This document shows positions 42,314-50,385 of a stretch of 64,000 nt of DNA, one piece after another (the stretch's first letter is position 1; every line of letters starts with the position of its first letter). The notes under the pieces are model-generated. The model saw only the letters and a list, made by a program, of their open reading frames with translations. It was not told the DNA's origin and searched no databases. The DNA is from Escherichia coli. GTDB taxonomy: Bacteria > Pseudomonadota > Gammaproteobacteria > Enterobacterales > Enterobacteriaceae. A program made the translations under genes and the position numbers. The DNA is taken from NCBI RefSeq assembly GCF_024298765.1, contig NZ_CP101210.1; one strand, written 5' to 3'.

Positions 42314-43270
42314 TCAATACCCCATATTTTTCTTCTTCTCTAACTCTTCTTTTGCGGTATCAGGCAGATAAAGGATGGATTTGGTCAGAGTTAGCTTTTC
42401 AGGCATGGTGCCGTCTTTTTTATATTTCTCCAGCGCATCAAAAGCGGGGCCTGCCATGTTCGGCGTCAGTTCAACGCTGGCGTTCGCTTCGCCATCAATC
42501 ATCGCTTTGTAGATGTCCGGCACGCCGTCGATAGAGCCTGTCAGGATATCTTTGCCCGGTTTCAGGCCCGCTTCTTTAATTGCCTGAATTGCACCAATCA
42601 CCATGTCATCGTTATGGGCGTAAACCATGCAGATGTTTTTGCCGTTGTTTTCCGCTTTGATAAAGCTCTCCATCACTTCTTTGCCTTTGCTGCGGGTGAA
42701 GTCACCTGACTGCGAGCGGATAATTTTGATATTTGGCGCATTCTTAATGGCTTCGGCAAAGCCTTTCTTACGGTCAATGGCGACGCTGGCCCCAACGGTG
42801 CCCTGCAGCTCCACCACGTTGCATGGTTTGCCATTCACTTCTTTTACCAGCCAGTCACCAATCAACTTGCCTTCGAGGATGTTGTCGGCGGTGACAGTGG
42901 TCATATAGAGAGATTTGTCTTTCACATCGATGGAACGGTCAAGCAAGAAGACCGGGATTTCGGCATCTTTCGCCTCTTTTAATACCGGTTCCCAACCCGT
43001 CGCCACCACCGGAGCGATAAAGATCGCATCCACCCCTTGTGCGACGAAGGAACGTACCGCTTTAATCTGGTTTTCCTGCTTTTGCTGACCATCGGCAATT
43101 TTCAGTGTGATACCGCGTTTTTCGGCTTCACTTTTCGCCACATTGGTTTCTGCGGCGCGCCAGCCGGATTCCGATCCGACCTGCGAAAATCCTACGGTTA
43201 ATGGAGCGGCCAACGCCATAGACGACATGGCTGCCGAGACTGCAGAGACTACAAGTAAGCGTTTCCACAT
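42314..43270 (-). CDS. ytfQ: Periplasmic galactofuranose-binding protein
   Basis: 318 aa; signal peptide MWKRLLVVSAVSAAMSSMALA; periplasmic-binding fold. Confidence 0.9.
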   Translation of the reverse strand: MWKRLLVVSAVSAAMSSMALAAPLTVGFSQVGSESGWRAAETNVAKSEAEKRGITLKIADGQQKQENQIKAVRSFVAQGVDAIFIAPVVATGWEPVLKEAKDAEIPVFLLDRSIDVKDKSLYMTTVTADNILEGKLIGDWLVKEVNGKPCNVVELQGTVGASVAIDRKKGFAEAIKNAPNIKIIRSQSGDFTRSKGKEVMESFIKAENNGKNICMVYAHNDDMVIGAIQAIKEAGLKPGKDILTGSIDGVPDIYKAMIDGEANASVELTPNMAGPAFDALEKYKKDGTMPEKLTLTKSILYLPDTAKEELEKKKNMGY

Positions 43271-43579
43271 AGGGTTGTCCTCGTCGGGGTAATTATTATT
43301 GGTGAAAAGATGTTCGCGAAAAAACTATAGACAATTCGTTATGTAACGGATTGCGTTACATCACACTTCAAAAAAGTAAATAAAACGTTAATCACAAGTT
43401 TGTAATCGCTTTCATCTCACTATGAAAAATGCGGCTACGGTTATGGATTTTCCTGCTCTGTATACCGTCTTAAAACTGGCGAAAAAGGAAAATGAAGACG
43501 AAAACAAGCGAAGACATTCGGCGCGAGTTGGCTATAATACTCGGCACTTGTTTGCCACATATTTTTAAAGGAAACAGAC

Positions 43580-44110
43580 ATGAGCTTACTCAACGTCCCT
43601 GCGGGTAAAGATCTGCCGGAAGACATCTACGTTGTTATTGAGATCCCGGCTAACGCAGATCCAATCAAATACGAAATCGACAAAGAGAGCGGCGCACTGT
43701 TCGTTGACCGCTTCATGTCCACCGCGATGTTCTATCCGTGCAACTACGGTTACATCAACCACACTCTGTCTCTGGACGGTGACCCGGTTGACGTACTGGT
43801 CCCGACTCCGTACCCGCTGCAGCCGGGTTCTGTGATCCGCTGCCGTCCGGTTGGCGTACTGAAAATGACCGACGAAGCCGGTGAAGATGCGAAACTGATT
43901 GCTGTTCCGCACACCAAGCTGAGCAAAGAATACGATCACATTAAAGACGTTAACGATCTGCCAGAGCTGCTGAAAGCGCAAATCGCTCACTTCTTCGAGC
44001 ACTACAAAGACCTCGAAAAAGGCAAGTGGGTTAAAGTTGAAGGTTGGGAAAACGCAGAAGCCGCTAAAGCTGAAATCGTTGCTTCCTTCGAGCGCGCCAA
44101 GAATAAATAA
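43580..44110 (+). CDS. ppa: Inorganic pyrophosphatase
   Basis: 176 aa; [47 protein letters not shown] motif. Confidence 0.97.
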
Positions 44111-44489
44111 GTTCTTCTGGCGCAATAACCCTGAACACCGGGCTTCGGTTAGTAAGGGTTTTTTTATGCCCGCAATTTATAAACTCTCTACTCCACTATT
44201 ATTATTTTCAGCAGTTGAAAGGCTTGAACGGTAAGAACAAGCTAAACTCGACCACCATTTTGCTGTTCATAGCCACTTGCTGGAAGTTAGCCGGCCTCAC
44301 TCATACTCACCGTTCAAAGCGTGTCCCCGTTTTACCCCTGTACATTTGTTAACGCCAGCAGAGTTTTTTATGCGATTGCAGATATGGAAAGCGGCCCGGA
44401 GAGAAAAGCAAAAGATGGGAAAGTTACAAAAAAAATCGCGAGATACATCGCATAAAACAACGCCACCCGAAGGTGGCGTGCTTTTATTA

Positions 44490-44831
44490 TTACTTATCCC
44501 TGTCTAACCAGTCGCCGCTTTCAATTAGCTTTAATCCATCGACGGGTCGTTGATAAACGTACATCCATGCACTCCCGTACGGCGTCTGAATCAACTGGCG
44601 CGCGTATTCACCGCCCCTGGTGCGCAAGGCATCAAGTTCGGCCAGCGTGGCGTTATCAATACGATAAACTTCACCGTGTACTGTTCCGTTCCCCGGAACT
44701 GCGCCTGGATAGTGGCCCAGGCTATACAACTGGTAGTTATCGATACTGAAATCGCCCAGTAACTGGGCATTGGTCATCCAGTGACTGTTGCCTTGTTTGT
44801 GGCGTAAACTGCCGTAGACAAATATTCGCAT
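44490..44831 (-). CDS. ytfP: Gamma-glutamylcyclotransferase-family protein
   Basis: 113 aa; MRIFVYGSLRHKQGNSHWMTNAQLLG; directly downstream of tamB. Confidence 0.85.
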   Translation of the reverse strand: MRIFVYGSLRHKQGNSHWMTNAQLLGDFSIDNYQLYSLGHYPGAVPGNGTVHGEVYRIDNATLAELDALRTRGGEYARQLIQTPYGSAWMYVYQRPVDGLKLIESGDWLDRDK

Positions 44832-44833
44832 TG

Positions 44834-50385
<5,552 letters not shown>

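What the first reader, a model, noticed from the sequence alone, without database searches (positions are those of the whole stretch)
44111..44489. ppa-ytfP intergenic region lacks the chpS-chpB toxin-antitoxin pair found in K-12
As I recall K-12, the chpBS toxin-antitoxin genes sit between ytfP and ppa. Here the gap is 379 bp with only a GC-rich hairpin (gccacccgaaggtggc) and no ORF with a ribosome-binding site. This is a second empty accessory slot.
Basis: partly seen in the sequence, partly recalled or inferred. Interest (0 to 1): 0.25.

Follow-up and report, generated by a model that had tools for sequence, protein, structure and literature searches.

The report
Decayed chpB toxin relic, not empty
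This E. coli strain does lack the chpS-chpB toxin-antitoxin genes that K-12 carries between ppa and ytfP, but the gap holds a dead 130-base fragment of the toxin gene, so it is an ordinary, already published case of toxin-antitoxin loss.

Summary
The window is E. coli. Between ppa (43580-44110, +) and ytfP (44490-44831, -) lie 379 bp with no intact chpS or chpB, whereas K-12 has 886 bp carrying both genes. The gap is not empty. Window 44188-44318 (- strand) is a relic of chpB covering about codons 7-48, the last codon and the stop. It is 71% identical to K-12 chpB (blastn E 6e-19; tblastn 60% over 30 aa) and carries an in-frame stop and a frameshift.

Two deletions made the relic. One removed chpB codons 49-115 between TGGTGG direct repeats. 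The other removed the operator, chpS and the chpB start.

About 43% of 5,426 complete E. coli genomes, including BL21, carry this relic. About 57% carry annotated chpS-chpB. The same relic, with the same junctions, occurs in E. albertii and in a cryptic Escherichia clade, so it is old.

I found no conserved ORF, no Rfam match and no covariation that would suggest a new function. The presence/absence polymorphism at this locus, including a third state with esiB, was published in 2013. The interval is ordinary and of low interest. The one mildly novel point is how long the relic and the intact allele have coexisted.

The parts
43580..44110 (+). ppa (inorganic diphosphatase) CDS, the left flank of the interval
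   Evidence: ORF list. RefSeq annotation of the identical strain 104 and of K-12.
44127..44166 (+). Putative ppa intrinsic terminator: an interrupted stem (AACCCU...AGGGUU with an inner ACCG/CGGU stem) followed by seven U
   Evidence: RNA fold. The segment 44111-44184 is 93% identical to K-12. The simple terminator scan did not pick it up, and the fold z-score of the 65-nt piece is weak (-0.6), so this part is inferred from its shape and position.
44188..44318 (-). chpB relic (pseudogene fragment). Stop codon at 44188-44190, Glu116 codon at 44191-44193, and about codons 7-48 at 44194-44318. It carries an in-frame TAG at 44242-44244 and a 1-nt frameshift near its 5' end. Codons 49-115 are deleted.
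   Evidence: tblastn with ChpB aa 19-48, 60% identity, E 3e-9 against the gap and 2.7e-6 against the window. blastn 71% over 127 nt, E 6e-19. Multiple alignment with intact alleles shows a 201-nt in-frame deletion between TGGTGG repeats.
44319..44328 (.). Junction zone of the second deletion (about 306 nt), which removed the chpS operator and promoter, all of chpS and about the first six codons of chpB. The exact breakpoint is ambiguous.
   Evidence: Alignment of relic and intact alleles. The conserved operator palindrome GTTATACTTTGTATAAC and chpS are absent. No chpS hit was found.
44329..44459 (.). Spacer homologous to the K-12 ytfP-chpS spacer (the leader of the chpSB cassette). It includes a second small hairpin plus T-run at 44437-44452 on the - strand.
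   Evidence: blastn 84% identity over 152 nt to K-12. Terminator-like site found by the scan. Fold of the region.
44460..44479 (-). ytfP intrinsic terminator (ACGCCACCTTCGGGTGGCGT followed by a T-run). It is palindromic, so it also scores on the + strand.
   Evidence: Terminator scan on both strands. Fold -24.5 kcal/mol, z -4.5. Conserved across Enterobacteriaceae at the end of ytfP.
44490..44831 (-). ytfP (gamma-glutamylcyclotransferase family) CDS, the right flank of the interval
   Evidence: ORF list. RefSeq annotation.

Best explanation
The ppa-ytfP gap is a decayed chpS-chpB (MazE/MazF-type, type II) toxin-antitoxin locus. It once held the same cassette that K-12 still has.

Two deletions destroyed the cassette. 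A 201-nt in-frame deletion between 6-nt TGGTGG direct repeats removed ChpB residues 49-115. A second deletion of about 306 nt removed the autoregulated promoter and operator, all of chpS and the start of chpB. I infer that the toxin was disabled first, because losing the antitoxin alone would be lethal.

The remaining 131 nt have since drifted neutrally. They show a stop codon, a frameshift, GC-to-AT bias, and changes spread evenly over the three codon positions. Today the interval most likely does nothing beyond terminating the convergent ppa and ytfP transcripts at their own hairpins.

The relic allele is old. It is shared, with identical junctions, by E. coli, a cryptic Escherichia clade and E. 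albertii. In E. coli it coexists with the intact allele at roughly 43:57.
For: - Homology of 44188-44318 to chpB: (E 6e-19 for DNA, 3e-9 for protein).
- Deletion anatomy and TGGTGG repeats.
- No chpS trace.
- K-12 layout with intact chpS-chpB.
- Population split: 2,323 of 5,426 genomes carry the relic, and about 3,097 match annotated chpB.
- Same 384-bp architecture in BL21, clade strain L011 and E. albertii L013.
- These are separate species by flanking-gene divergence (tamB 90-91% identical to the window).
- The relic diverges at about the rate of neighbouring third-codon positions. Relic identity between the window and E. albertii is 82.5-88.8% by segment, against 86-87% for third positions.
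- 19 of 107 substitutions are shared by all four relics, split 8:5:6 over codon positions, with GC-to-AT excess.
- No ORF is conserved among relic alleles.
- PGAP annotates nothing there.
- No Rfam family matches.
- No compensatory changes occur in the relic hairpin.
- Independent relics with different breakpoints exist at the same site in C. sedlakii (chpB) and E. cloacae (chpS).
- Decay of chromosomal toxin-antitoxin loci in E. coli is established in the literature: review PMC7167474.
Against: - The left deletion breakpoint cannot be placed exactly. The bases 44310-44330 align about equally well to chpB codons 7-12 and to part of the operator region (my reading).
- The relic differs from all intact Escherichia chpB alleles by 26-30%, while relics differ from each other by only 4-18%. 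Such an old pseudogene coexisting with an intact allele is hard to explain by simple neutral polymorphism, so the history may involve re-acquisition or introgression.
- The relic folds into a long hairpin (-45.5 kcal/mol, z -3.1). A residual structural role is therefore not strictly excluded.
- All rate estimates rest on about 110-380 nt and on one genome per non-coli species.
Confidence: 0.9

Rival explanations
1. One reading: the junction is a never-occupied, empty accessory slot, and K-12 simply gained chpS-chpB by insertion.
For: No intact genes are present. The site is variable across strains and species.
Against: - A significant chpB fragment lies in the gap.
- The gap also retains the roughly 150-bp leader of the cassette.
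- Truly empty junctions in other genera are about 100-170 bp and contain only two terminators.
Confidence: 0.02
2. The relic has been kept because it does something. For example, its roughly 98-nt hairpin might act as an RNA element, a transcription insulator between the convergent ppa and ytfP genes, or an sRNA.
For: The - strand of 44180-44325 folds at -45.5 kcal/mol with z -3.1. The architecture has persisted in three Escherichia species.
Against: - The same hairpin exists in the intact K-12 chpB 5' region (z -2.4), so it is inherited rather than newly evolved.
- No pair shows a compensatory change, the covariation term is -0.14, and E. albertii breaks three pairs.
- Divergence is at or above the synonymous rate.
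- No Rfam family matches.
- Both flanking genes have their own terminators.
Confidence: 0.05
3. An alternative history rather than an alternative identity. The relic is the ancestral state of the genus Escherichia, pseudogenised long before speciation. The intact chpS-chpB found in K-12-like strains and in some other Escherichia species was brought back later by homologous recombination through the conserved ytfP and ppa flanks.
For: - The stem branch of the relics (19 of 107 shared changes) is about 1.7 times their tip branches, which places pseudogenisation well before the E. coli / E. albertii split.
- chpSB sits at exactly this site in scattered species of Enterobacter, Kluyvera and Pseudocitrobacter, while their congeners have bare junctions.
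- The haplotypes next to ytfP do not track allele state. GPT21 (intact) carries the window-type flank, and E1V33 (intact) and L011 (relic) share a flank at 95.8%.
Against: - Intact alleles differ among Escherichia species by amounts close to the species divergence (chpS 90-94%, against tamB about 91%), as expected for vertical descent.
- Intact Escherichia chpB is the closest known relative of the relic.
- No donor lineage was identified.
Confidence: 0.3

Closest known systems
chpS-chpB (ChpBI/ChpBK) type II toxin-antitoxin locus of E. coli K-12 (MazE/MazF-PemK family)
   Same: It occupies the same chromosomal position between ytfP and ppa. Window 44188-44318 is homologous to chpB codons 7-48, the last codon and the stop. 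The spacer upstream of chpS is retained at 84% identity.
   Different: There is no chpS, no operator or promoter, and no ChpB residues 49-115. The fragment carries an in-frame stop and a frameshift. It is a pseudogene fragment and not a member of the functional family.
Decay of the chromosomal ccdO157 toxin-antitoxin system in E. coli (Mine et al. 2009, as summarised in review PMC7167474)
   Same: A chromosomal type II toxin-antitoxin system sits at a fixed locus, is intact in some strains and is degraded by deletions and nonsense mutations in others.
   Different: It is a different toxin-antitoxin family at a different locus. Here the degraded allele has a single origin and is shared across Escherichia species, rather than being many independent lesions. 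I did not read the 2009 paper itself.
The esiB / chpBS / neither polymorphism of the ytfP-ppa locus (Pastorello et al. 2013, mBio, PMC3735183)
   Same: It is the same locus, and the window has the published 'neither' state. The paper reports 53% chpBS, 15% esiB and 32% neither among 47 genomes. I found about 57% intact, 3.5% esiB and about 39% relic only among 5,426 genomes.
   Different: The passages I read do not mention that the 'neither' and esiB states carry a chpB relic. I did not see the paper's figures.

Membership tests
MazF/PemK-type toxin ChpB (Pfam PF02452) | Significant sequence similarity to ChpB | tested here: met
   tblastn aa 19-48, 60% identity, E 3e-9 against the gap and 2.7e-6 against the window. 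blastn 71% over 127 nt, E 6e-19. K-12 ChpB itself matches PF02452 at 1.1e-25.
MazF/PemK-type toxin ChpB (Pfam PF02452) | Intact ORF of about 116 aa covering the whole toxin fold | tested here: not met
   Only about 43 codons plus the last codon remain. Codons 49-115 are deleted. There is an in-frame TAG at 44242-44244 and a frameshift, and the start codon is missing.
Type II toxin-antitoxin module chpS-chpB | Adjacent upstream antitoxin gene chpS (MazE/AbrB-type, PF04014) | tested here: not met
   The best tblastn hit of ChpS in the gap has E 1.2 over 4-5 aa. chpS is absent from the alignment.
Type II toxin-antitoxin module chpS-chpB | Autoregulated promoter with the operator palindrome GTTATACTTTGTATAAC upstream of chpS | tested here: not met
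   The palindrome is conserved in all intact alleles from five genera and is missing from all four relic alleles.
Decayed chromosomal toxin-antitoxin locus (pseudogene relic) | Homologous fragment at the same position as the intact system in related genomes, carrying disabling lesions and evolving without constraint | tested here: met
   Same ytfP-ppa position. Two deletions, a stop and a frameshift. Substitutions split 8:5:6 over codon positions with GC-to-AT bias. Divergence is close to that of third-codon positions.
Rho-independent terminator (ytfP) | GC-rich stem-loop followed by a T-run directly downstream of the stop codon | tested here: met
   Eight pairs (six G-C), loop of 4, then a T-run. 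Fold z -4.5. Conserved across the family. Termination itself was not measured.
Any curated RNA family (Rfam 15) | Covariance-model match at or above the gathering score | tested here: not met
   The only hit in 43000-45000 is the S15 leader at 17.9 bits against a 39.5 cut-off, E 0.34, and it lies inside ppa.

The most novel reading that the evidence does not exclude
The intact chpS-chpB allele and its single-origin relic may both have been segregating since before the Escherichia species separated. That would be a trans-species presence/absence polymorphism of a toxin-antitoxin module. It would imply long-term balancing selection (for example phage defence or anti-addiction benefit against cost), or repeated allele exchange through the conserved ytfP and ppa flanks.
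Probability: 0.25. Interest if true: 0.45.

Novelty: already known. Interest (0 to 1): 0.15.

Why it matters
It matters little for mechanism. The strain lacks one of the classic K-12 toxin-antitoxin systems, as about 43% of sequenced E. coli do, BL21 included.

Three modest points have some practical value:
- PCR or gene-presence surveys that score chpBIK as 'absent' are in fact scoring a fixed, ancient pseudogene allele and not a clean deletion.
- The relic is a convenient neutral marker of the locus history. It shows that the loss of this toxin-antitoxin system predates the E. coli / E. albertii split.
- The ytfP-ppa junction is a recurrent cargo site across Enterobacteriaceae. It carries chpSB, esiB, a bgl-like operon, Hcp-toxin fusions or chemoreceptor genes in different lineages.

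If the coexistence of the two alleles proves to be maintained by selection, it would bear on the long-running question of whether chromosomal toxin-antitoxin systems are useful or merely selfish.

Tried and rejected
- Global MAFFT alignment of the window gap against the K-12 gap mis-placed the relic against chpS and the spacer. The consensus line nevertheless revealed the similarity, and local BLAST and a 16-sequence alignment resolved it.
- An Rfam scan of 43000-45000 at E up to 1 returned only a sub-threshold S15-leader hit inside ppa, which I treated as chance.
- A structured-RNA reading of the relic hairpin was tested with seven relic alleles. There were no compensatory pairs, and the same hairpin occurs in intact chpB. 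I rejected this reading as unsupported.
- Small-ORF reading: the ORFs of 30-45 aa in the window gap are not conserved in BL21, L011 or E. albertii. Rejected.
- I considered a microhomology model for the left deletion, with GGTAAA repeats upstream of the operator and at the chpB start. The sequence between 44319 and 44328 fits neither side well, so I left this undecided.
- The papers most likely to describe chpB distribution (Fiedoruk 2015; Ramisetty and Santhosh 2016) are not in the held library.
- Searches (bad search term; sequence too long) and part (N50 lacks the full relic) failed and were repeated in another form.
- I did not determine the phylogroup of the window strain.

Full report
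**What is at the coordinates.** The window is E. coli. An 801-nt probe spanning the interval is 100% identical to strain 104 and matches 5,425 of 5,426 complete E. coli genomes. The local gene order is as follows:
- ytfQ, 42314-43270, - strand
- ppa, 43580-44110, + strand
- a 379-bp gap, 44111-44489
- ytfP, 44490-44831, - strand
- tamB, 44834-48613, - strand

ppa and ytfP converge on the gap. It is unique in the window, with 0.04 matches expected by chance. It scores as an intrinsic terminator on both strands and folds at -24.5 kcal/mol with z -4.5.

**Comparison with K-12.** A K-12-derived RefSeq record has chpB and chpS, both annotated, between ppa and ytfP in an 886-bp gap. K-12 ChpB and ChpS match the Pfam families PemK_toxin and MazE_antitoxin.

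**The gap is not empty.**
- A global alignment first hinted at similarity between the middle of the gap and chpB.
- tblastn with ChpB hits window 44283-44194 on the - strand. The match covers residues 19-48 at 60% identity with an in-frame stop. E is 3e-9 against the gap and 2.7e-6 against the whole 64-kb window.
- blastn aligns 44193-44318 to K-12 chpB at 71% over 127 nt, E 6e-19.
- ChpS gives nothing better than E 1.2.
- The outer parts of the gap match K-12 well. Positions 44111-44184 (the ppa terminator region) are 93% identical, and 44328-44479 (the ytfP-chpS spacer with the ytfP terminator) are 84% identical.

**Anatomy of the relic.** I aligned four relic alleles with twelve intact alleles.
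- chpB codons 49-115 are missing. This is a 201-nt in-frame deletion whose ends in K-12 are the 6-nt direct repeats TGGTGG (CGCTGGTGG|CCCCC ... GCGGTGGTGG|AATAA). One repeat copy, the last codon (Glu) and the stop codon remain at 44188-44196.
- A second deletion of about 306 nt removed the operator palindrome GTTATACTTTGTATAAC, which is conserved in every intact allele from five genera. It also removed the ribosome-binding site, all of chpS and about the first six codons of chpB. Its junction lies within 44319-44328 and cannot be placed exactly.
- The surviving codons 7-48 carry a TAG at 44242-44244 in this strain, a 1-nt deletion at the same place in BL21, and a frameshift near the 5' end.
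- I infer, but have not shown, that the toxin was disabled before the antitoxin was lost. [quoted passage not shown]

**How common it is.** A 171-nt probe of the relic covers at least 80% of its length in 2,323 of 5,426 complete E. coli genomes.
- Two main sub-alleles are present: about 680 genomes at 95% identity or more, and 1,629 genomes at 90-95%, including BL21(DE3).
- About 3,097 genomes match only through an annotated chpB, at about 80% identity over 73 nt.
- The species is therefore split roughly 43:57.
- PGAP annotates nothing under the relic.

This polymorphism is published. Pastorello et al. 2013 describe the ytfP-ppa locus as holding chpBS (53%), esiB (15%) or neither (32%) among 47 genomes, with esiB flanked by short repeats of partial inverted symmetry (PMC3735183). 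I recovered the same states:
- esiB is present here in 188 genomes. In strain A22 it is inserted at the ytfP terminator, with the hairpin duplicated, and it sits next to a complete relic.
- A rarer fourth state has a bgl-like PTS / GH1 / licT operon, followed in strain N50 by a phage integrase and prophage-like genes. The operon occurs in 12 genomes.

**Age of the relic.** A one-genome-per-species scan with YtfP returned 80 loci.
- The same 384-bp architecture, with the same junctions, occurs in E. albertii (L013) and in a strain labelled E. coli (L011). L011 is in fact a separate lineage, because its tamB is only 91% identical to the window.
- Intact chpS-chpB occupies the site in E. whittamii and three other non-coli Escherichia lineages.
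- Whole-gap identities among relics follow the species relationships. The window is 95.3% identical to BL21, 85.4% to L011 and 85.9% to E. albertii.
- These values are close to third-codon-position identity in the flanking genes, which is 86-92%. This is as expected for unconstrained sequence inherited vertically.
- Against positions invariant in all intact Escherichia alleles, 19 of 107 sites are changed in all four relics. The changes are spread 8:5:6 over codon positions. GC-to-AT changes outnumber the reverse, and GC content falls from 53.5% to 43-51%.
- Each relic has a further 8-12 private changes. The shared stem is therefore longer than the tips, and pseudogenisation predates the split of these species.
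- These figures rest on about 110 nt and are rough.

**History of the two alleles.**
- Intact alleles differ among Escherichia species by amounts similar to the species divergence (chpS 90-94%, chpB 3' part 87-96%).
- The haplotypes next to ytfP do not track allele state. GPT21 is intact but carries the window-type flank, and E1V33 (intact) and L011 (relic) share a flank at 95.8%.
- Both alleles therefore look old, and recombination has shuffled them against their flanks.
- I cannot tell whether this reflects a long-lived trans-species polymorphism or re-introduction of the intact cassette through the conserved flanks. I rate the second history at about 0.3.

**The wider site.** In most Citrobacter, Enterobacter, Klebsiella and Kluyvera species the ytfP-ppa gap is 99-170 bp and consists of the conserved ytfP terminator and a ppa terminator back to back. 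That is what a truly empty junction looks like. Other species differ:
- chpS-chpB sits at exactly this position in Enterobacter asburiae, Kluyvera genomosp. 1, two Pseudocitrobacter genomes and an unnamed enterobacterium. ChpB identity to K-12 is 64-78%.
- Independent relics with different breakpoints occur in Citrobacter sedlakii (ChpB residues 63-107) and Enterobacter cloacae (ChpS residues 9-31).
- Other species carry Hcp-domain toxin fusions, a methyl-accepting chemotaxis protein or uncharacterised membrane proteins here.

'Accessory slot' is therefore a fair description of the site, but 'empty' is not a fair description of this strain.

**Tests for a new function of the relic.**
- The - strand of 44180-44325 folds into a long hairpin (-45.5 kcal/mol, z -3.1). 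The homologous part of intact K-12 chpB forms the same hairpin (z -2.4).
- In seven relic alleles no pair shows a compensatory change, the covariation term is -0.14, and E. albertii breaks three pairs.
- No ORF of 25 aa or more is conserved among the four relic alleles.
- No Rfam family reaches threshold.
- I conclude that the relic is inert, with about 0.05 left for a residual RNA-level role.

**Verdict.**
The absence of intact chpS-chpB and the presence of the hairpin are real, but the gap also contains a chpB relic.
- Both the absence polymorphism and the general phenomenon of chromosomal toxin-antitoxin decay are published, so the finding is already known and of low interest.
- I did not find the relic's structure or its cross-species age described in the papers I could search. 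This is a small addition rather than a new kind of thing.

Noticed in passing
L091 (E. coli A22) 557-2591; corresponds to window ~44452-44479: In 188 of 5,426 genomes a roughly 1.6-kb esiB cassette (secretory IgA-binding protein) is inserted at the ytfP terminator. The hairpin is duplicated on both sides, and a complete chpB relic sits next to it. The esiB state is published (PMC3735183), but the relic beside it is not mentioned in the passages I read.
   Followed up: partly
L006/L007 (E. coli N50), after ppa: A rare fourth state of the locus, found in 12 genomes. A beta-glucoside PTS IIABC gene, a GH1 glycosidase and licT follow ppa, then a partial relic. In strain N50 these are followed by a phage integrase with Cox and replication-endonuclease genes (prophage-like).
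   Followed up: partly
L005 (E. coli ST38), between chpB and ppa: An extra insertion of about 125 bp (TATACTCGTCATACTTCAAGTTGCATGTGCTGCGACTGCG...CCTGGGGATTCAC) lies next to the ppa terminator. From memory it resembles an ERIC/IRU repeat. I did not test this.
   Followed up: no
L019 (Citrobacter youngae), L020 (Salmonella enterica subsp. arizonae), L031 ytfP-ppa gaps: The same junction carries Hcp-domain proteins with C-terminal extensions. The C. youngae protein matches T6SS_HCP plus DUF6883, and the S. arizonae protein matches T6SS_HCP only. Each is followed by a small ORF. They look like type VI effector/immunity pairs. L031 holds a truncated copy.
   Followed up: partly
L044, L048, L057 and similar (Silvania, Enterobacter soli, Pluralibacter) ytfP-ppa gaps: A methyl-accepting chemotaxis protein gene of 526-541 aa (HAMP plus MCPsignal domains) occupies the junction in several genera. 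L082 appears to hold a fragment of it.
   Followed up: partly
L036, L054, L037, L058 (Enterobacter cloacae, E. mori and others) ytfP-ppa gaps: A set of two or three small genes with no Pfam match (products of 194, 156 and 107 aa; two look membrane-embedded) occupies the junction, complete or truncated. In L036 a ChpS fragment lies beside it.
   Followed up: no
L030 (Citrobacter sedlakii) gap 91-223: An independent chpB relic (residues 63-107) with different breakpoints. It retains a leader similar to the E. coli ytfP-chpS spacer. This shows separate decay of the same cassette in Citrobacter.
   Followed up: partly
L001 (K-12) 1995-2132, - strand; window 44215-44320: The 5' part of chpB (codons 7-41) forms a long imperfect hairpin through the inverted repeat TTGAACGG(G)GAG / CTCTCCGTTCAA. 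This segment is 95-100% identical among intact Escherichia alleles, which is more conserved than chpS or the chpB 3' part. The reason is unknown.
   Followed up: partly
L008 (CP089930, 'E. coli E69') and L011 ('E. coli SCPM-O-B-8794'): Both records are titled E. coli, but their tamB is only about 91% identical to the window, similar to E. whittamii. They appear to belong to non-coli Escherichia lineages.
   Followed up: no
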